From Candidatus Woesearchaeota archaeon (GTDB lineage: Archaea > Nanobdellota > Nanobdellia > Woesearchaeales > UBA583), in NCBI GenBank assembly GCA_965205335.1, contig OZ242164.1:672001-736000 (forward strand): 64,000 nt of DNA, read 5' to 3'. Each line of letters opens with the position of its first letter. Position 1 is the stretch's first letter. The notes beneath the pieces were generated by a model. The model was not told the DNA's origin. It ran no database searches and worked only from the letters and a program-made list of their open reading frames with translations. The translations under genes and the position numbers were made by a program. This document shows positions 2,583 to 59,090 of this stretch, piece after piece.

Positions 2583-4367
2583 TCACAACCCCCACAAAGT
2601 ATCTTCCTTTCTCATAATCTCTGCAATCTCTTTTAAAGTCCCAACCTCATCTTTACTTAGAAGATCTGAATTTCTCTTCAAACTTCTAAAATTCTCCTCT
2701 CCCATAAATGAATATAAAACCGAATCCTCCTGAGCATGCCTTCCTATAACCAAATCATCAACAGAAATTGCCGCAGACTTTCCAAACTCTAACTCTTTAA
2801 GATTATTAGAATTATCCTTAATCGACTTTAACTCCCCAACCCTTTTACCATAATCATTCATAAGCCTGACCCCTGTCTTAGCCTTTCCCCCTGTAACCTC
2901 AACTCCCACAATCGCAGGATTTGACGCCCTGAAAATACAATTAGATAAAATCTTTACTTTAAACGGCATAACCAATGACTCTAATCTTTTTCTGTTAATT
3001 TCAATCTCTTTTTTCTCAATCCACTGCGATGCATCCTCAACCAACTTATATATAATATCATTTGAAATAACCTCAACATTATACTCCTTTGCCATTGCAA
3101 GAGTATCATCATCTATCTTCTGTGAAAAATTTAAAACAAGAGCATTCTTAGGATTATGCTTTAAATCTGCACCTGCATCAATTACATCCTTTCTATTCAC
3201 TTTTCCAATCAAAGCCTTTCTTAACGGAATATTATGTTCCTCTAATATATGCGAAAGAGCTTCAAGTGAACCTAAAGTATCTGCCTTGATAAGAACACCC
3301 TCATCACTGTGATTTATTGAAACTTCTGCTTTTTCTCTCTCCAACTCCTCAATGTATTGGTTCAGTTCAATCTCTGTTACATCTGCCCGCGCAGTAATTA
3401 TGGGCATTCCTGCTTTAATATCCTCTAAATCCGGACAGGCTAACTTAATTCCTGATGCAGCCCAAACTTCCTTAACTACTTCAAACTTAGTAGAACTATC
3501 TCTTATCTCCGTTAATTCCTTTGGCTTCAAAATTGATTTTAACCTTGACTTCTGAACCCCATCAATATCAAGTGCTAAAACCACATCATCCGATTTTATA
3601 AGCCCATCATACAAAATCACATCAATTGTCTTTCCAAGTCCCGTATAATCCTTCACCTCAAGAATAACTCCCTTTGATGAATCAAGATTTTTAATTGTTA
3701 ACTTTTCCTCCATGTATTTCTGAGTAAGTCCTGTAAGTGTTGAAATAAGTTCAGTTATACCTTCCCCTGTCTTTGCTGAAATTGGAACAATCGCAACAGA
3801 CTTTGTAAAATCATCAATCCTATCAAACCTCTCAGAATTTATTCCAAACTCAGCAACTTTTCCTACTATCTCATATATCTTTTCCTCAAACTTATAATTA
3901 ACCCTTTGCTCCTGAGAATTTATACTATCAATTAATTTCATTTTAGGATGAGAATCCCACCCTGCAATATTATCTATCTTATTTGCCGCAATTACAAATG
4001 GAGTCTTCATTGACTTTAAAATCTCAAGAGCCTCAATCGTCTGGGGCTTAAAACCTTCATTAATATCAACCACAAGAATTCCAATATCTGATATTGATCC
4101 ACCTCTCTTTCTTAGAGAAGTAAACGCTTTATGCCCTGGCGTGTCAATAAACAAAAGTCCTGGAATCTTTATGGCCTCTTTGGGAATAAACCCCTTAACA
4201 ATTTTAATTAAATTTTCCTTGGAAACTTCTGTTGCTCCTATATGCTGGGTAATACCTCCTGCTTCTTTAGAAATAAGTTTTGAGTTTCGTATAAAATCAA
4301 GAAATGATGTTTTTCCATGGTCAACATGACCCAGAACTGAAATAATTGGCTGGCGTAAATAAGACAT
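2583..4367 (-). CDS. infB: Translation initiation factor aIF5B (IF-2)
   Basis: LRQPIISVLGHVDHGKT, GGITQHIGA, DTPGH, NKID; SD-like GAGGTGA upstream. Confidence 0.97.
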   Translation of the reverse strand: MSYLRQPIISVLGHVDHGKTSFLDFIRNSKLISKEAGGITQHIGATEVSKENLIKIVKGFIPKEAIKIPGLLFIDTPGHKAFTSLRKRGGSISDIGILVVDINEGFKPQTIEALEILKSMKTPFVIAANKIDNIAGWDSHPKMKLIDSINSQEQRVNYKFEEKIYEIVGKVAEFGINSERFDRIDDFTKSVAIVPISAKTGEGITELISTLTGLTQKYMEEKLTIKNLDSSKGVILEVKDYTGLGKTIDVILYDGLIKSDDVVLALDIDGVQKSRLKSILKPKELTEIRDSSTKFEVVKEVWAASGIKLACPDLEDIKAGMPIITARADVTEIELNQYIEELEREKAEVSINHSDEGVLIKADTLGSLEALSHILEEHNIPLRKALIGKVNRKDVIDAGADLKHNPKNALVLNFSQKIDDDTLAMAKEYNVEVISNDIIYKLVEDASQWIEKKEIEINRKRLESLVMPFKVKILSNCIFRASNPAIVGVEVTGGKAKTGVRLMNDYGKRVGELKSIKDNSNNLKELEFGKSAAISVDDLVIGRHAQEDSVLYSFMGEENFRSLKRNSDLLSKDEVGTLKEIAEIMRKEDTLWGL

Positions 4368-4412: not shown

Positions 4413-4420
4413 TTTATAAA
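4413..4420 (-). promoter_or_regulatory. TATA box for aIF5B gene
   Basis: TTTATAAA about 50 bp upstream of the ATG, with an SD in between. Confidence 0.6.
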
Positions 4421-4434
4421 AGAAATGGTTTAAC

Positions 4435-5328
4435 GGCACTGTCCATAAATTCAAATTTAAGAATTAACAACTCGAAAAAACAATGTTTAATTTTGAAACT
4501 TTTCCAAACTATATACAATTATATACGTTTGTAAACACTTGTATATAAACTACAACAAATCATATCGTTTTCGGTGTTTTTTTTTGTTATTATGCATAAT
4601 AATTATATACATTTGTATATAAACCACAACGAATCATATCGTTTTAGGTGTTTTTTTGTTATTTCCACTATATACAATCATATACGCTTGTAAACAAACT
4701 GTAACGAATTGTATCGTTTTCGGTGTTTTTTTTGTTGAGTTTGAATGACTTGTTAAATTTGTTTGTTATTTTCACCATATACAATCATATACGCTTGTAA
4801 ACAAACTATAACGAATTGTATCATTTTAGGAGTTTTTTCATGTTGAAATCTATTTTTGATGTTTTCTCCCATGATTATCTTTAGAATTTTGATGTTTATA
4901 AAGATATTTATTTGAGGGTTCTGTAACAAATTCTGCTACAATTTCTAATGTGTTTTCCGCTGAAAATCTGAACATTATACTGTTCATCTCTTTGATTATA
5001 GTGATGATGATAATAGTCGGAATAGGATACAAATATAAAATACTTAATGAACTCCGACTTGGAAAGAGCAACACGCAAAAAAGCAAACTCCTCTAAATCC
5101 TTGATTGCTGTAATTATGTTTCTGAATCACTCTCCTCATAAATTCAAGAGAACTTAAAATATTGTATCAATAAAGTAATTTTTGACAAATAATCTTTTTC
5201 TTTTTCATCAATATTTAGAAAATTACACAACTACTCATAATCAGAAAGCACTTTGCTATCTGCTCTTCATTTTTAATTTTCTCTAATATCTCTTTTTAAT
5301 TCCTTTATTTGAATTTATGGACAGAGCC
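4435..5328. mobile_element. 894-bp non-autonomous IS5-related element (composite MITE) with 8-bp target-site duplication
   Basis: Left TIR GGCACTGTCCATAAATTCAAAT (4435-4456) matches right ATTTGAATTTATGGACAGAGCC (5307-5328) at 21/22; GGTTTAAC duplicated at 4427-4434 and 5329-5336; no transposase ORF. Confidence 0.9.
4510..4840. repeat. Imperfect tandem repeats, units of about 75-107 bp, inside the element
   Basis: TATC(G/A)TTTT(C/A)GG(T/A)GTTTTTT four times (~4562, 4636, 4711, 4818); ATATACAAT(C/T)ATATACG(C/T)TTGTAAACA three times (~4510, 4669, 4777). Confidence 0.85.
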
Positions 5329-5342
5329 GGTTTAACCTTTCA

Positions 5343-13209: not shown

Positions 13210-14037
13210 ATGGACTTTGAGCAGAAAAGAAGGATGAGTAGAAACGAGGAGAAATATCATATAGAGAACCTAAAAATTGCTCGTGAATTCTCCAAAGAAA
13301 TCTTAAAAGAATTCAACGAACTCGTAAGAGCAATTGTTTTATTTGGTTCAAATACTCACGACACTTTAAAGAAGAATTCAGACATTGATGTTATGATTGT
13401 TTTAGATAATGTTTCCGTTTTTGTATCTCCTGAACTTCGTGAAGCATACTCAATTATAACAAAAAAACTTAATGCAAGTGTTGGAAAAAACAAAATTCAT
13501 ATAATGACGATGAACCTATCTGATTTGTGGGATATGTGCCGCAGAGGAGACCCAGTTATGATTAACGTTTTGCGTTACGGACTTCCAATATTTGATAGAG
13601 ATTTAATTGAACCACTTCAATATCTTCTCGAAATAGGAAGAATAAGACCAACCAGAGAAAGTATCTATAATTATATGGCAAGATCCCAAACCCTTTTAGA
13701 TGAAACAAACAAACACATTCAAAGTGGGGTTTTAGATTTGTATTACTCATTAATTGATATGGTACACGCAACTCTTATGTCATTTGGAAAAGCCCCTCCA
13801 TCCCCTAAAGAAATGCCCAAAATCTTTGTCAAGACATTTAAAAATAACAAAAAATTATCTGCTTACTCAAAAGATATTGATGAGATATATAAGATTGGAA
13901 AAGATGTTGAACACAGGAAATGTGAACTAAGTGGCTCTGAACTTGACAGACTGAAAAAAAAAGTTTCTAAAATTGTTAATAATCTAAAAAAAATAGTAGA
14001 TAGCGAAATCTCTAAAAAAGACCAGTTTGAATTGTAG
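13210..14037 (+). CDS. Nucleotidyltransferase (MNT-like)-HEPN fusion protein
   Basis: LFGS...SDIDVMIVLD NTase motif; HEPN-like C terminus (DLYYSL...LMSFG...KDVEH). Confidence 0.8.
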   Translation: MDFEQKRRMSRNEEKYHIENLKIAREFSKEILKEFNELVRAIVLFGSNTHDTLKKNSDIDVMIVLDNVSVFVSPELREAYSIITKKLNASVGKNKIHIMTMNLSDLWDMCRRGDPVMINVLRYGLPIFDRDLIEPLQYLLEIGRIRPTRESIYNYMARSQTLLDETNKHIQSGVLDLYYSLIDMVHATLMSFGKAPPSPKEMPKIFVKTFKNNKKLSAYSKDIDEIYKIGKDVEHRKCELSGSELDRLKKKVSKIVNNLKKIVDSEISKKDQFEL

Positions 14038-14095
14038 AGAATAATTCTGAATTTTTTAATTATAAAAGAACTTAGGTATTACTTCTAAACTGTTC

Positions 14096-14272
14096 CTATG
14101 ATTTGCGTTTATGATAGGTTGGGAGACGATTTAACCCTATTATTCCTCCCAAAATTGCTCCTAAAACTCCTAAGAGTACTCCTAAGTCTGCTCTAAAAAA
14201 TATCCTTCATAACATTCCAAAAATCACTGCTCCTAAAACCGCCCCCATTATTATATACATTATTAGTTTCAT
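14096..14272 (-). pseudogene. Small glycine-zipper membrane protein with in-frame TGA
   Basis: Manual translation MKLIMYIIMGAVLGAVIFGML*RIFFRADLGVLLGVLGAILGGIIGLNR...; TGA at 14207-14209. Confidence 0.55.
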
Positions 14273-14372
14273 ATTTCATCTACTCTTAAATCTTTTATTT
14301 GTTCTTTGTATTTAGAAAATTTCATTCATAAAAATAGGATGCTTGTGTTTTTTATAAAACTATTCTATGGAA

Positions 14373-14500
14373 GGCTCTGTCCGAAAATTGTTTTTTCCAA
14401 AATCTATGCTAACTATCTTCAATCAAAGAAAAAAATTATTTGTCAAAAATTGTTTTATTAATACAATATTTTAAGTTCTCTTGAATTTTCGGACAGAGCC
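14373..14500. mobile_element. 128-bp MITE with 17-bp perfect TIRs and 8-bp TSD
   Basis: GGCTCTGTCCGAAAATT ... AATTTTCGGACAGAGCC; CTATGGAA duplicated at 14365-14372 and 14501-14508. Confidence 0.93.
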
Positions 14501-14662
14501 CTATGGAAAATCTTTCTATTTTGGTTTAATTTCCATTTTCTCAGTATCCTTCTTTTTCTTTTTTCTAATTTTAATGGGAATTATGTTAAGGAAAAAAATA
14601 AAAACAAAGAGTTATTTTTTACATAGTAAAGAAAAGATTTTTCCAAGTCTTGAACTAGATAA

Positions 14663-15595
14663 ATGCCATATGAATTTAAAATTGATGAGAAATATGAAGG
14701 TATCTCTCCAAAGAATTTTCTGAAAAAGAAAATAGACTGCAGTTATGATTCTATATTCAAATACATTAAAGATAAAAGAATAACTCTTAACAAGAAGAAG
14801 ATTAAAAGTGACATTAAATTAAAAAAAGGAGATATTATCAAAGTATGGCTTGATACCATCCCAAAAAAAGAAGAAAAAGAAGAATTAGTAAAAAGAATAT
14901 CAAAGAATTTGAAAATCTCGATGATTTACCAAAATAAAGATTTTCTAGTTTTAAATAAATCTGCTGGTGTTGTCGTTCAGGGAGCACAGGATAATCCTAC
15001 CTCCCTATCGTATCATCTTGAATACCTACGCCAAAAAGACAAAGGAAGTGAGAATTACTTTCATGTTCACAGATTAGACAAAGATACATCAGGGGTTTTG
15101 GTTTGTTCTAAAAATATTATCTCTTGCAGGAATCTAAACAAGGTTTTTCGCGACAAAGATATGAAAAAAATTTATGTCTGTCTGTGCTATGGAAAATTTA
15201 AAAATAAAAAGGGCAGAATTGAAGTTAATTTAGAGAGAACTCCTCCTGAAGTTAGAGAGAAAGTTGTTGTTTCAAAATCAGGAAAATACTCTTTGAGTTC
15301 ATACAATGTAATTCGTGAATACAAATTCAAAGGAGATGTCTACTCTCTTGTTGAAGTTAGCATTAAAACAGGAGTAACCCATCAGATAAGAGTTCACATG
15401 AAATACATCAACCATCCAATTGTCTGTGATAAAATGTATGGCAATTCATTTGTAAACAATAATTTTAAACGAATACTTAACAGACAGTTTTTGCATGCTA
15501 AGATTTTAGAATTTAAATACAATGATAAAAAATATTCTTTTGATGCCCCGCTAACTGACGATTTGAAGAAAGTAATACAGGTTTTAACAAAGTAA
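14663..15595 (+). CDS. RluA/RluC/RluD-family pseudouridine synthase (bacterial type, S4 domain)
   Basis: NKSAG, HRLDKDTSG, TGVTHQIRVH, RQFLHA. Confidence 0.92.
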   Translation: MPYEFKIDEKYEGISPKNFLKKKIDCSYDSIFKYIKDKRITLNKKKIKSDIKLKKGDIIKVWLDTIPKKEEKEELVKRISKNLKISMIYQNKDFLVLNKSAGVVVQGAQDNPTSLSYHLEYLRQKDKGSENYFHVHRLDKDTSGVLVCSKNIISCRNLNKVFRDKDMKKIYVCLCYGKFKNKKGRIEVNLERTPPEVREKVVVSKSGKYSLSSYNVIREYKFKGDVYSLVEVSIKTGVTHQIRVHMKYINHPIVCDKMYGNSFVNNNFKRILNRQFLHAKILEFKYNDKKYSFDAPLTDDLKKVIQVLTK

Positions 15596-46530: not shown

Positions 46531-47514
46531 TGTATTGTCCGCAAAAAATTTCCCACCTTGGAAATTGAGTCTTTTATGAAACTAAATGCTTTGGACATTG
46601 AAAAGATAATTAAGCGTAAGAATAAAGGTGTTTCATCTGTTTTTATTGCTAAGCAGTTCAATATTAGTAAAAGAAGAGTTAATCAACTTTTCTTAGAATT
46701 TAAGAAAACAGGGTTACTTCCTGTTTTGCAGAAGAATGGCATGAAACCAAAAAGAGTCTATCTTAGAAGTTTAGAAAGAAGAATTCTTTCTTTGCATTCA
46801 AAACTAGGGTTTGGAGCAAATTACATTTGTCAATATCTGCGTAAGAAAGAAAACTTTAAAATTGCAAATAACTATGTTCATATTGTGTTACTTGCAAATA
46901 ATAAAGCAACTGCCAATCCTAAAAAGCAAAAGAGAAGAAAGCCATGGATTCGTTATGAAAAACCATGGTCTTTAGATATGGTTCATATGGATTGGCACTA
47001 TAATTCACATTTGCAAATGTGGATGTGTGCGGTCTTAGATGATAAATCAAGGAAAATCCTTTGTGGAGGCGAGTTCAAAAAACAAGAAGCAAAACACAAT
47101 ATTGGGTTGATCAAACAAGCTTACAAAACGTATTTGCATATAAGACCAATTGATATTTGTTTGACTGATAGAGGCAGTCAGTTTTATGCAAATAAGCAAG
47201 AGGGTAAACAACAAGGCATATCTGAGTTCCAAAGAGTTCTTGCCAGGTTAGGAATTACACATTCAAAATGTAGATATAAACACCCTCAAACCAATGGTAA
47301 GTTTGAGAAGTGGAATCATACCTATGAACTTCATAGACAGAAATTCAACACATTTAATGAATTTATGGACTGGTATAATCATAGACCGCATGGTAGCTTG
47401 GATTTTGATACGCCTGAACAAGTGTTCTGGCGTGAATTAATGCCATGGACATTAGGTAGGTTTATAAAAATGATTGGAGGTAATAAAAGTGGGAAAAAGA
47501 ATTAGGACAACACA
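46531..47514 (+). mobile_element. IS481-family insertion sequence
   Basis: Ends TGTATTGTCC...TTTCCCAC and GTGGGAAA...GGACAACACA (TGT...ACA); no flanking duplication. Confidence 0.85.
46558..47505 (+). CDS. IS481-family DDE transposase (integrase core)
   Basis: N-terminal HTH, VHMDW, LTDRGSQF, HPQTNGKFE, YNHRPHGSL. Confidence 0.92.
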   Translation: MEIESFMKLNALDIEKIIKRKNKGVSSVFIAKQFNISKRRVNQLFLEFKKTGLLPVLQKNGMKPKRVYLRSLERRILSLHSKLGFGANYICQYLRKKENFKIANNYVHIVLLANNKATANPKKQKRRKPWIRYEKPWSLDMVHMDWHYNSHLQMWMCAVLDDKSRKILCGGEFKKQEAKHNIGLIKQAYKTYLHIRPIDICLTDRGSQFYANKQEGKQQGISEFQRVLARLGITHSKCRYKHPQTNGKFEKWNHTYELHRQKFNTFNEFMDWYNHRPHGSLDFDTPEQVFWRELMPWTLGRFIKMIGGNKSGKKN

Positions 47515-48301
47515 CTCGAAGAACTAGGTGACGATATTTCAAATTAAAGAATTTAATTGAGATGAAACTGGAAGTTTACTTCCATGGAAGCGATGGCTTC
47601 AACTCCCAAAAATTCCTGCTAAATCCACATTACATGATTGGATGAAGTCATTTAATTTAGAATTTATTAGAGAATTGTTACATCAAACAATTTCGGAGAT
47701 TAAACCTGAAATTGTTGCAATTGATGGATCAGGAGTTGATACTCAATATAAATCATCATATTTTCAAAAACGTTTAATGGACTTTGGATTTAGAAAACCA
47801 AAAACTCCATGGCATAAATTAGACATCATAGTTGATGTTAAATCTAAAGAAAAATGGATTTTAGATTTTTCTTTTTTAATTAAACAACAACACGATTCAA
47901 AAGTTGCTTGGCAACTTTTTAAGCGAATTTAAAGAATTGCACTTTGGTAGTTCCACCAAAGAATTATGGAACTAAATGTGTTCATAGAAACTATGAACGT
48001 GAAAAGTTCCATAAGCAATATTATGAAAATGAAAAATTATATTCATTAAGAAACAATGTTGAAAGTGTGTTTTCTTCTTTGAAACGAGCTCAAGGACTCA
48101 AAATCCGTTCTAAGAAAGGATTTATGAAAAAAAGAGAGATGGGTTGGCAAATGGTTTGGTATAATATTAGAAAAAAACTTTCTTGCATAAAGTTTTTTGT
48201 TCAATTTATAATTAAGAATTTGATTGAAATTATTAAATATTTGAATTTTAATTTGAAAAATCAAATTTCAACTAATTAAAAATTAGTTTCCGGACAGAGC
48301 C
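47515..48301 (+). mobile_element. Truncated IS5-family element: pseudogenised transposase and right TIR only
   Basis: Fragments IPAKSTLHDW, VAIDGSG...WHKLDIIVD (47642-47932) and YSLRNNVESVFSSLKR (47944-48279); right end TTTCCGGACAGAGCC at 48301 matches the MITE ends. Confidence 0.85.
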
Positions 48302-48344
48302 AACCTTACAAAAATTTTATAAACATTGAATTATAGCAAATAAT

Positions 48345-48713
48345 ATGCCTCACCAATGTTTAGGATGCGACAGAATTTATAACAACTCATCAGATGTAAT
48401 CATAAAAGGTTGCCCTGATTGTGGTAAGAAACTATTTCTATACATAAGAGATATGCCCAAAGAAGAAGAGGAGCAAATTGAAATCTCAAAAAGAAACAAA
48501 GAACTAATCCTAGAAGAAATTGAATCAATGACAAACATCCAAGACATCGAAGAACCAATTATCCTAAAACTTGAAAACGTAAGAGTCCTTGCTTCAGGAA
48601 AATACGAAATAGACATCAACCAACTCATGAAAAAAGAAAAACCCCTAATCTATAAAGTTCAGGACGGCACTTATGTAATTGACTTAAACTTTCTGGTGAA
48701 CGAAAATGAATGA
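48345..48713 (+). CDS. Zn-ribbon protein (DUF2072/OapC-like)
   Basis: MPHQC..C...GCPDCG, GKYEID, GTYVID; TTTATAAA at 48316-48323. Confidence 0.8.
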   Translation: MPHQCLGCDRIYNNSSDVIIKGCPDCGKKLFLYIRDMPKEEEEQIEISKRNKELILEEIESMTNIQDIEEPIILKLENVRVLASGKYEIDINQLMKKEKPLIYKVQDGTYVIDLNFLVNENE

Positions 48714-59007: not shown

Positions 59008-59090
59008 CGGCAGGACTGGGATTTGAACCCAGAATTCCAAAAGGAACAAGATTTCAAGTCTTGCGCAATACCAGATTATGCAATCCTGCC
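59008..59090 (-). tRNA. tRNA-Ser(TGA), CCA not encoded
   Basis: GGCAGGA/TCCTGCC acceptor stem, CAAGA-CTTGAAA-TCTTG anticodon arm, long variable arm, GTTCAAATC T loop, G discriminator. Confidence 0.95.

What the first reader, a model, noticed from the sequence alone, without database searches (positions are those of the whole stretch)
14351..14508. Possible promoter-targeted transposon: three related elements each end exactly 14 bp from a TTTATAAA box
Seen: reading outward from the element, the flanks are GTTAAACC-ATTTCT-TTTATAAA (end 4435, TATA 4413-4420, infB), TTCCATAG-AATAGT-TTTATAAA (end 14373, TATA 14351-14358) and AACCTTAC-AAAAAT-TTTATAAA (end 48301, TATA 48316-48323, Zn-ribbon gene). 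The 8-bp target sequences are unrelated, but the spacing (8-bp target + 6-bp BRE position + TATA) is identical, and each element sits upstream of the promoter of the adjacent gene. Known: archaeal TBP/TFB bind TATA/BRE, and yeast Ty3 is positioned by TFIIIB at Pol III promoters. Inference: this IS5-family transposase may be positioned by TBP-TFB or by TBP-bent DNA, giving safe-harbour insertion in a compact genome. I know of no description of this for an archaeal IS. Caveats: n=3, the intergenic DNA is AT-rich, and the third TSD is unconfirmed because its left end is lost.
Basis: partly seen in the sequence, partly recalled or inferred. Interest (0 to 1): 0.8.

Follow-up and report, generated by a model that had tools for sequence, protein, structure and literature searches.

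The report
Archaeal transposon that targets TATA-box promoters
A small family of jumping genes in a tiny archaeal genome almost always lands at one exact spot, 14 bases upstream of the TATA box of a gene's promoter, which leaves the promoter intact and recalls how the yeast Ty3 element is guided to promoters.

Summary
In the window's 1.2-Mb genome I found 111 ends of this IS5-like element (about 1030 bp) and its 128-bp MITE. A TTTATAAA box with at most 1 mismatch starts exactly at flank position 15 in 57 of them. No other position has more than 6, and the intergenic background is 0.73%.

Of 29 copies with a perfect 8-bp duplication, 27 have the box on exactly one side. The box is the TATA of the neighbouring gene. 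The gene points away in 50 of 57 cases, with its ATG mostly 22-28 bp past the box. The 6 bp between duplication and box match the genome's BRE logo. The element therefore sits just upstream of BRE/TATA.

Relatives with 38-63% identical transposases show the same register: 54 of 138 ends in 80 metagenome loci. An unrelated rve IS in the same genome does not. Orthologous infB promoters in three relatives have the box but no element.

Targeted insertion is shown. How the site is recognised is not. I favour docking on the TBP/TFB-promoter complex (about 0.5) over direct DNA reading by the transposase (about 0.35). I found no description in nine literature searches. Verdict: new variant of a known kind, high interest.

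The parts
4413..4420 (-). TTTATAAA TATA box of the infB (aIF5B) promoter, which fires leftwards. The infB ATG is at 4367.
   Evidence: infB orthologues in G002, G007 and G013 keep TTTATAAA at a similar distance and have no element.
4421..4426 (-). 6-bp spacer at the BRE position, between the TATA box and the duplication. Read outward from the element it is ATTTCT.
   Evidence: This is one of only 3 of 57 TATA-side flanks without A at flank position 12.
4427..4434 (.). Left copy of the 8-bp target-site duplication, GGTTTAAC.
   Evidence: 0 TSD mismatches.
4435..5328 (.). 894-bp non-autonomous derivative with the family's inverted-repeat tips (GGCACTGTCC and GGCTCTGTCC). It has internal tandem repeats, a MITE-like piece and no intact transposase.
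5329..5336 (.). Right copy of the duplication, GGTTTAAC.
14351..14358 (-). TTTATAAA box 14 bp from the MITE. The BRE-like AATAGT lies on the element side, so it should fire leftwards. No clear gene follows (28-aa ORF at 14193-14279).
14365..14372 (.). Left copy of the duplication, CTATGGAA.
14373..14500 (.). 128-bp MITE, one of about 36 full copies in the genome. Two other copies are 100% identical to it.
14501..14508 (.). Right copy of the duplication, CTATGGAA.
47515..48301 (+). Degenerate, left-truncated copy of the IS. The transposase frame is split into ORFs 47642-47932 and 47944-48279. The right tip GGACAGAGCC ends at 48301.
48302..48309 (.). The 8 bp at the duplication position, AACCTTAC. 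The partner copy is lost with the left end.
48316..48323 (+). TTTATAAA TATA box of the OapC-like zinc-ribbon gene (ATG at 48345, 21 nt after the box, so leaderless geometry).
   Evidence: PF09845, 7.5e-23.

Best explanation
These are an IS5-like DDE insertion sequence and its non-autonomous derivatives. The IS is about 1030 bp, encodes one 304-aa transposase and has tips GGCWCTGTCC. The derivatives are a 128-bp MITE and an 894-bp element.

The transposase inserts into a defined register of archaeal promoters. Its staggered cuts make an 8-bp duplication whose promoter-proximal edge lies 6 bp upstream of the TATA box, at the upstream border of the BRE. The element therefore ends up 14 bp from TTTATAAA, in either orientation, with BRE, TATA and gene left intact.

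Shown: the target register, its side, and its conservation across a clade of related elements.

Inferred, and my preferred mechanism: the transpososome recognises the promoter as the TBP-TFB-DNA complex. It does so by contact with TFB or TBP and/or by the bent DNA, and it integrates at the first free DNA on the complex's upstream edge. This resembles Ty3 integrase docking on TFIIIB. The result is a safe harbour in a 1.2-Mb genome that is about 85% coding.
For: Register:
- 57 of 111 ends have TTTATAAA (at most 1 mismatch) starting at flank position 15; any other position has at most 6. Background is 0.73%.
- 40 of 43 paired copies have the box on at least one side. Of the 29 with a perfect 8-bp TSD, 27 have it on exactly one side and 2 on neither.
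- Both MITE orientations occur next to the box.

The box is a real promoter:
- Genome-wide, TTTATAAA peaks 26-35 bp before ATGs.
- The TATA-side gene points away in 50 of 57 cases, with its ATG 44-57 bp from the element in 32.
- The element-to-box distance is fixed, whereas box-to-ATG runs from 22 to several hundred bp.

Side:
- A at flank position 12 (BRE) in 54 of 57.
- The flank logo of 56 occupied sites matches that of 357 unoccupied promoters. The lowest per-position p values of 50 positions are 0.005-0.014, uncorrected. I take this to mean the target carries no strong sequence information beyond the promoter itself.

Empty sites: infB promoters of G002, G007 and G013 carry the box without the element.

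Conservation:
- Elements with 38-48% identical transposases in other genomes of the genus and order show the same register. One has a 9-bp TSD and still a 6-bp gap.
- In 80 metagenome loci (43-63% identity), 54 of 138 unique ends have the box at position 15, with at most 4 at any other position. Of 10 loci with a perfect TSD, 8 have it on one side.

Specificity: an unrelated rve IS in the same genome (5 copies, 15-16-bp TSD) has no such register.

Repeated use: at least 12 non-TATA flanks begin, directly after the TSD, with the tip of another related element. This is what repeated hits on one promoter would produce.

Activity: three IS copies are 99.9-100% identical with an intact ORF, and three MITE copies are identical.

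For the host-factor step specifically (all indirect):
- The box is a palindrome, yet only the BRE side is used.
- Only one side of a presumably symmetric transpososome sees a motif.
- The cut falls at the border of the region that TFB covers in solved TBP-TFB-DNA structures (recalled knowledge).
- Promoter occupancy rises with TATA quality: 20 of 160 exact, 9 of 233 with one mismatch, 0 of 675 with two or more.
Against: There is no direct evidence of contact with TBP or TFB.

The transposase is a minimal 304-aa protein, with an N-terminal helical domain and a DDE core and no spare domain. It has no profile similarity to TFB or TBP.

The strong bias to the exact octamer would equally fit a sequence-reading protein: 39 of 57 occupied boxes are exact, against 160 of 393 canonical promoters with at most 1 mismatch.

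The one-sidedness could come from selection removing insertions between TATA and the start site.

Gene calls were crude (ATG ORFs of 70 aa or more). As a result 21 of 57 TATA-side flanks, including the one at window 14351, lack a gene at leaderless distance.

Many metagenome contigs lack a TSD and may be chimeric: 39 of 49 pairs.
Confidence: 0.5

Rival explanations
1. The transposase reads the DNA itself. One protomer, probably through its N-terminal helical domain, binds the BRE/TATA sequence and places the active sites 6-14 bp upstream. No host protein is needed. This would be a built-in target selector, functionally like TnsD at attTn7 or IS1397 in REP sequences.
For: Precision is to the base in 57 of 111 ends. 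Occupancy falls steeply with a single mismatch: 12.5% to 3.9% to 0%. Sequence-specific targets are the usual solution in prokaryotic IS (recalled). The N-terminal region is highly conserved across the clade, for example the KLFxNYQR motif. The register persists between elements only 38-63% identical.
Against: The flank logo adds no strong signal beyond the host promoter logo. The transposase would therefore have to copy the joint specificity of TBP and TFB. The octamer is palindromic yet only the BRE side is used (54 of 57 with A at position 12), which needs either BRE reading or selection. The best consensus boxes should be the ones most often covered by TBP in the cell. The same small domain must also bind the unrelated terminal repeat.
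Confidence: 0.35
2. There is no targeting. Insertion is random or merely AT-biased, and selection in a compact genome leaves only copies just upstream of promoters.
For: The genome is about 85% coding by crude calls. Only 3 of 111 ends lie in crude ORFs. Selection must also act.
Against: Selection cannot fix the distance to the base. There are 57 ends at position 15 and at most 6 at any other of 60 positions, although intergenic DNA offers about 184,000 positions. An unrelated rve IS in the same genome survives at other places, without the register. Three IS copies are 99.9-100% identical, so recent, and each already has a box with at most 1 mismatch at the register on one side.
Confidence: 0.03
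3. The box belongs to the element: a longer element carries an outward promoter, or promoter-plus-MITE modules spread by recombination.
For: The box always accompanies the element at a fixed distance.
Against: The 14 bp in between differ from copy to copy, and 8 of them are the duplication that directly abuts the tips. The box is on one side only, next to either end of the MITE. The sequence beyond the box is the unique leader and ATG of different genes. Orthologous infB promoters have the box without the element.
Confidence: 0.01

Closest known systems
IS5 family insertion sequences (DDE_Tnp_1 transposases) and their MITEs. From recall, the ISH1 subgroup has 8-bp duplications.
   Same: Single ORF of about 300 aa with a PF01609 DDE domain, and invariant D115, D188, E245 and K252 in the alignment. 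Short terminal inverted repeats, element length about 1 kb, 8-bp duplication, and MITE derivatives sharing the tips.
   Different: The score is below NCBIfam's IS5 equivalog cut-offs (109 against 140 bits). IS5-family target preferences that I recall are short motifs inside the duplication. Here the determinant is a 14-bp BRE/TATA block outside the duplication, on one side only.
Ty3 LTR retrotransposon of yeast, positioned by TFIIIB (TBP plus the TFB homologue Brf1) at Pol III start sites. Related cases from recall: Ty1, Dictyostelium TRE5-A and Tf1.
   Same: Base-precise insertion at the edge of a TBP-containing promoter complex, in either orientation, at many different genes. Repeated hits pile up at the same promoters. 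The adjacent gene stays functional.
   Different: A DNA transposon with a bacterial-type DDE transposase, not a retroviral-type integrase. It lies upstream of BRE rather than at the start site. Protein contact is not shown here.
Tn7 with TnsD at attTn7, and IS that land in defined sequences (IS1397/ISKpn1 in REP, IS30 hot spots) - recalled.
   Same: Fixed distance between a recognised sequence and the insertion point, and a safe-harbour logic.
   Different: There is no separate target-selector gene; the element has one ORF. The target is not one locus or one repeat family but the general promoter element, present before hundreds of genes.
PIF/Harbinger-type MITEs such as rice mPing (eukaryotic relatives of IS5) that favour regions just upstream of genes - recalled.
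   Same: A MITE burst from an IS5-superfamily transposase with promoter-proximal insertions that spare coding sequence.
   Different: mPing's preference is regional, over hundreds of bp, not a single-base register relative to the TATA box.

Membership tests
IS5 family (DDE_Tnp_1) insertion sequence | Transposase with a DDE_Tnp_1 catalytic domain | tested here: met
   PF01609, E 8.9e-22, 78 bits against a cut-off of 23, residues 109-280. The AF2 model (pLDDT 79.8) matches Tn5, ISCth4 and piggyBac transposase folds.
IS5 family (DDE_Tnp_1) insertion sequence | Passes a curated IS5 family model | tested here: inconclusive
   The best NCBIfam hit is transpos_IS5_2 at 109 bits, below its cut-off of 140. 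The next is IS4_1 at 60 bits. ISfinder was not available.
IS5 family (DDE_Tnp_1) insertion sequence | Conserved D, D, E triad with K/R seven residues after E | tested here: met
   D115, D188, E245 and K252 are invariant in 32 homologues. Calling them the catalytic triad is inference from their position in the Pfam match.
IS5 family (DDE_Tnp_1) insertion sequence | Terminal inverted repeats and a fixed-length target duplication | tested here: met
   Tips are GGCWCTGTCC. A perfect 8-bp TSD is present in 29 of 43 paired copies.
MITE | Short, non-coding and multi-copy, with the tips and TSD of an autonomous IS in the same genome | tested here: met
   128 bp, about 36 full copies plus fragments, the same tips as the 1030-bp IS, and 8-bp TSDs.
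Host-factor-tethered integration (Ty3/TFIIIB type) | Insertion at a fixed register relative to a TBP-bound promoter element | tested here: met
   57 of 111 ends are 14 bp from the TATA box, on the BRE side.
Host-factor-tethered integration (Ty3/TFIIIB type) | Physical dependence on the transcription factor | not testable with these tools
   Needs biochemistry or genetics. Profile comparison only shows that the transposase is not itself related to TFB or TBP.
Host-factor-tethered integration (Ty3/TFIIIB type) | LTR retrotransposon with a retroviral-type integrase | tested here: not met
   This is a DNA element with inverted repeats and a PF01609 transposase. The comparison is of mode of action only.
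Tn7/TnsD-type sequence-directed targeting | A separate DNA-binding target-selector protein encoded by the element | tested here: not met
   The 1030-bp IS holds one ORF of 60 aa or more besides an overlapping antisense 68-aa frame.

The most novel reading that the evidence does not exclude
The transposase is recruited by the archaeal TBP-TFB-promoter complex. That would be the first transcription-factor-guided DNA transposition in a prokaryote, and an archaeal counterpart of Ty3-TFIIIB targeting. It would mean promoter-complex tethering of mobile elements arose independently of, or before, eukaryotes. The element would also be a natural base-precise reporter of TBP/TFB occupancy in uncultured DPANN-like archaea.
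Probability: 0.45. Interest if true: 0.92.

Novelty: new variant of a known kind. Interest (0 to 1): 0.85.

Why it matters
Site-specific IS and promoter-tethered retrotransposons are both known. A prokaryotic DDE element that uses the general archaeal core promoter (BRE/TATA) as its landmark, to the base and across a whole clade of elements, is not something I could find described.

It explains how a 1.2-Mb, gene-dense genome tolerates about 50 copies of one element.

It poses a clean, testable question: does the transposase read BRE/TATA itself, or does it dock on TBP/TFB? The reagents are few: one small transposase, a 128-bp donor, and TBP and TFB.

It marks real promoters in organisms that have no transcriptome data. 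It also suggests a compact tool for promoter-proximal insertion.

The stacked elements upstream of single promoters, and the 14 of 43 copies without a duplication, indicate that the family also drives rearrangements in this genome.

Tried and rejected
- Complex prediction with TBP, the TFB core (residues 100-317) and the transposase as partner, all as alignments: verdict 'no answer', score 0.00, controls not run. This is not evidence either way.
- hhalign of the transposase profile against TFB and TBP: no similarity (probability below 1%).
- Structure prediction and PDB fold search: a generic DDE transposase with an N-terminal helical domain. No extra domain gives a clue to target choice.
- The look-up of sequencing runs and read laying on window 13900-15000: three runs of one sample, held as contigs only, no RNA holder listed. 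Contigs break at the multi-copy MITE. No joint across an empty site was seen, so nothing can be said on polymorphism or expression.
- tRNA promoters as targets: none of 32 aragorn tRNAs lies within 200 bp outward of any end.
- Rfam on the window: only one tRNA, at 59008-59090. No RNA gene lies behind the box at 14351.
- A second DDE_Tnp_1 gene at G000:C1:589204-589959: single copy. My simple inverted-repeat search found no clear ends, and I did not pursue it.
- The search for related loci in genome contigs with the single protein found only 3 loci, none useful for ends.
- The listing of cluster members for TFB and TBP gave no names. An mcrA search was negative, so the organism is not a methanogen. 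The only organism labels seen on homologues are 'Nanoarchaeota archaeon' (P0053; L005) and 'uncultured Methanosarcinales archaeon' (two MAG records).
- Literature: searches, plus term look-ups inside PMC13343696 and PMC10969869, found no description of TATA- or BRE-registered insertion of an archaeal IS or MITE. I saw only listings, abstracts and the matched passages. The 2007 MMBR review of archaeal IS was not held under the id I tried, most subscription journals are not searched, and supplements are closed. Absence from print is therefore not established.
- I considered that insertion is registered to the ATG or start site rather than to the box. I rejected this because box-to-ATG distance varies while element-to-box does not.

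Full report
**1. The observation**

- At 4435 the tip GGCACTGTCC is preceded by GGTTTAAC (4427-4434), AGAAAT (4421-4426) and TTTATAAA (4413-4420).
- At 14373 the tip GGCTCTGTCC is preceded by CTATGGAA, AATAGT (read outward) and TTTATAAA (14351-14358). The same CTATGGAA follows the other tip at 14501-14508.
- At 48301 the tip is followed by AACCTTAC, AAAAAT and TTTATAAA (48316-48323).

The pattern GGCWCTGTCC occurs 5 times in the window, against 0.05 expected.

**2. What the elements are**

The window lies in a one-contig genome of 1,199,749 bp with 30.9% GC. BLAST of the copies against the genome shows four things:
- About 36 full 128-bp copies of a MITE, plus fragments.
- Seven long copies of 1017-1031 bp in two subfamilies about 89% identical to each other.
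- The 894-bp window element (4435-5328) as a non-coding derivative.
- A degenerate remnant at window 47515-48301.

Three long copies are 99.9-100% identical and carry an intact 304-aa ORF. That protein matches Pfam DDE_Tnp_1 (8.9e-22). Its best NCBIfam hit is an IS5 model at 109 bits, below the cut-off of 140. D115, D188, E245 and K252 are invariant in 32 homologues. The AF2 model (pLDDT 79.8) has an N-terminal helical domain and a DDE core resembling Tn5, ISCth4 and piggyBac transposases.

The element is therefore an IS5-like insertion sequence with MITE offspring, recently active.

**3. The register, genome-wide**

I collected every end with at most 1 mismatch to the tip and the conserved inner AAAxT. 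This gave 111 ends.
- TTTATAAA sits at flank positions 15-22 in 39 ends, and with at most 1 mismatch in 57. Any other start position among 60 holds at most 6.
- Over all 368,504 intergenic position-directions, the chance of a box at that offset is 0.17% (exact) or 0.73% (at most 1 mismatch). This gives binomial p of about 6e-79 and 3e-90.
- The genome holds only 411 TTTATAAA.
- Of 43 paired copies, 40 have the box on at least one side. Of the 29 with a perfect 8-bp duplication, 27 have it on exactly one side and 2 on neither; those two have 3-mismatch AT-rich octamers.
- The 14 pairs without a matching duplication include 3 with a box on both sides and 1 with none. I read these as recombination between copies (inference).
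- Either end of the MITE can face the box.

**4. The box is the promoter, and the element is upstream of it**

With crude gene calls (ATG ORFs of 70 aa or more, 1068 genes, 85% of the genome), TTTATAAA and TTTAWA peak sharply 26-35 bp before start codons. Most genes are therefore leaderless and this octamer is the TATA box.

On the TATA side the nearest gene points away from the element in 50 of 57 cases. Its ATG is 44-57 bp from the tip in 32. The box-to-ATG distance runs from 22-28 bp (29 of 50) to several hundred bp, while the element-to-box distance is constant. The box, not the start site, is therefore the reference point.

The six bases between duplication and box are A-rich, with A at flank position 12 in 54 of 57. 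Position by position, the flanks of 56 occupied sites have the same composition as 357 unoccupied promoters aligned on their box. The lowest p values of 50 positions are 0.005-0.014, uncorrected. Two conclusions follow:
- The element always lies on the BRE side of a palindromic box.
- The target carries no strong information beyond the promoter consensus.

Among promoters at canonical distance, 20 of 160 with an exact box are occupied. So are 9 of 233 with one mismatch and 0 of 675 with two or more, though many of the last group may not be promoters.

Caveat: 21 of 57 TATA-side flanks have no called gene at leaderless distance. One is the box at window 14351, behind which I find only a 28-aa ORF and no Rfam match.

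**5. Controls**

- Orthologous infB promoters in G002, G007 and G013 keep TTTATAAA at a similar distance, followed by unrelated upstream DNA and no element. The box therefore predates the insertion. G014 has no TTTATAAA in the 140 nt read, and G019 has one about 90 nt upstream of the ATG rather than at the infB-like distance, so these two are not clear-cut.
- An unrelated IS of the rve type is inserted into the third window element at 46531-47514. It is 984 bp, has 5 copies at 98-99% identity and makes 15-16-bp duplications. It shows no box at a fixed distance.
- No tRNA gene lies within 200 bp of any end.

**6. Conservation outside this genome**

With the transposase as query, 13 of 41 genomes searched had a match (G000 plus relatives of its genus and order). 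Ends of elements with 34-48% identical transposases in G007, G012, G018, G019, G032 and G039 show TTTATAAA-like octamers at positions 15-22. One G007 copy has a 9-bp duplication and the box at 16-23, so the 6-bp gap is kept. A 139-bp MITE in G019 has a perfect duplication and TTTATAAC on one side.

A profile search of metagenome contigs returned 80 loci at 43-63% identity. Among 138 unique motif-defined ends with at least 22 nt of flank, the box (at most 1 mismatch) starts at position 15 in 54, with at most 4 at any other position. The exact octamer starts at position 15 in 26, against 3 elsewhere.

Of 49 loci with both ends, only 10 have a matching duplication. Eight of those 10 have the box on exactly one side. 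The other 39 split 17, 8 and 14 for zero, one and two sides, and may be chimeric assemblies of a multi-copy element.

The only organism labels on homologues are 'Nanoarchaeota archaeon' and two MAGs labelled 'uncultured Methanosarcinales archaeon'. G000 has no mcrA. I take the host to be a small DPANN-type archaeon, without proof.

**7. Stacking**

At least 12 non-TATA flanks begin, directly after the 8-bp duplication, with the tip of another element. These tips are of related but distinct kinds:
- GGTTCTGTTAAG...AGAGACC
- GAGTTGTTAAGTTAAAGG
- GGCTTTGTACGAAAAGT

This is the arrangement expected if a second element hits the same register of a promoter that already carries one (box, 6 bp, duplication, new element, duplication, old element).

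The GGTTCTGTT family itself has the box at position 15 in 9 of 44 occurrences of that 9-mer, with single counts at other positions.

**8. Mechanism**

Shown: base-precise, one-sided, orientation-free insertion at the upstream border of BRE/TATA.

Not shown: how the border is found. I favour recognition of the TBP-TFB-DNA complex (about 0.5) for four reasons:
- The target equals the promoter consensus and nothing more.
- Only the BRE side of a palindrome is used.
- Only one side of the transpososome sees a motif.
- The cut coincides with the edge of the DNA covered by TFB in solved archaeal ternary complexes (recalled, not tested).

Direct reading by the transposase (about 0.35) fits the steep dependence on an exact octamer and is the usual prokaryotic solution. 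It would require a 304-aa protein to bind both its own tips and BRE/TATA, and it needs selection or BRE reading to explain the one-sidedness.

Selection alone, or a box carried by the element, are excluded by the exact register, the negative-control IS, the variable 14 bp and the empty orthologous sites.

The IS drives its own gene from TTAATAAA at 30-37 nt from the tip, with the ATG at 59. Whether that weaker box limits self-targeting is speculation.

**9. Comparison and novelty**

The element is an IS5-like IS by domain and anatomy, although it fails the curated IS5 score. It works like Ty3 at TFIIIB-bound promoters, or like a TnsD-type fixed-offset selector, without being a member of either kind.

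None of the listings, abstracts or passages I saw in nine literature look-ups describes TATA- or BRE-registered insertion in archaea. The main review of archaeal IS was not available and supplements are closed.

**10. Verdict**

The finding is confirmed and greatly extended. It is a new variant of a known kind, the mechanism is open and directly testable, and I score interest at 0.85.

Noticed in passing
window 46531-47514 (G000:C1:718531-719514): A 984-bp rve-type IS (315-aa ORF, PF00665 3.1e-10; tips TGTRTTGTCC...) is inserted into the degenerate IS5-like copy. There are five copies in the genome at 98-99% identity with unusually long 15-16-bp duplications. One copy appears to lie in coding sequence.
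   Followed up: partly
G000:C1, e.g. 38741/38751, 137390/137400, 183756-187521, 827526-829751, 1044577-1045492 (outside the window): A second element family has tips GGTTCTGTTAAG...AGAGACC and no transposase of its own found in this genome. Some tip-bounded segments carry cargo ORFs: the 916-bp unit at 1044577-1045492 has an 85-aa and a 134-aa ORF, the latter with a DTGA motif. Pairs of tips often lie back to back, 8-9 bp apart.
   Followed up: partly
G000:C1 near 95700, 463750, 541400-542440, 1000000 (outside the window): A perfect palindrome GTGACATATGTCAC recurs beside several insertion sites. In at least three places it is followed by the same roughly 60-nt sequence (CAGTCTAAAA.TTAACAA...ATGAAAAAATACGAAATTAGGAAAG). 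It may be a repeated gene leader or another mobile unit. Unexplained.
   Followed up: no
window 4480-4850: The 894-bp derivative contains imperfect tandem repeats of about 75-110 bp (units such as ATATACAATTATATACG.TTGTAAACA). Similar repeats occur at five or more other genome places (BLAST rows).
   Followed up: no
G000:C1, 14 of 43 paired copies (e.g. 47345-47472, 147223-147350, 460577-460703): These copies have no matching duplication, and three of them have a TATA box on both sides. This is the pattern expected from recombination between copies, so the MITE family probably mediates inversions or deletions. The flank of 147350 is identical to that of 520986.
   Followed up: partly
L001 1179-1236 (G000:C1:928578-928635): The IS's own transposase promoter is TTAATAAA (one mismatch from the target octamer), 30-37 nt from the tip. 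An A-rich BRE precedes it, and the ATG is 21 nt behind it.
   Followed up: no
window 14193-14358: The TATA box next to the MITE points to a stretch with only a 28-aa ORF (MKYETNN...) starting 72 nt away, antisense-adjacent to the 3' end of a nucleotidyltransferase gene. It may be an unannotated small gene or RNA.
   Followed up: partly
G000:C1:589100-590300: A second, single-copy DDE_Tnp_1 gene (291-aa frame, 88 bits) lies next to a tip-like GGCTTTGTACGATAAGT. The same tip type abuts two MITE insertions (520859, 34174).
   Followed up: partly
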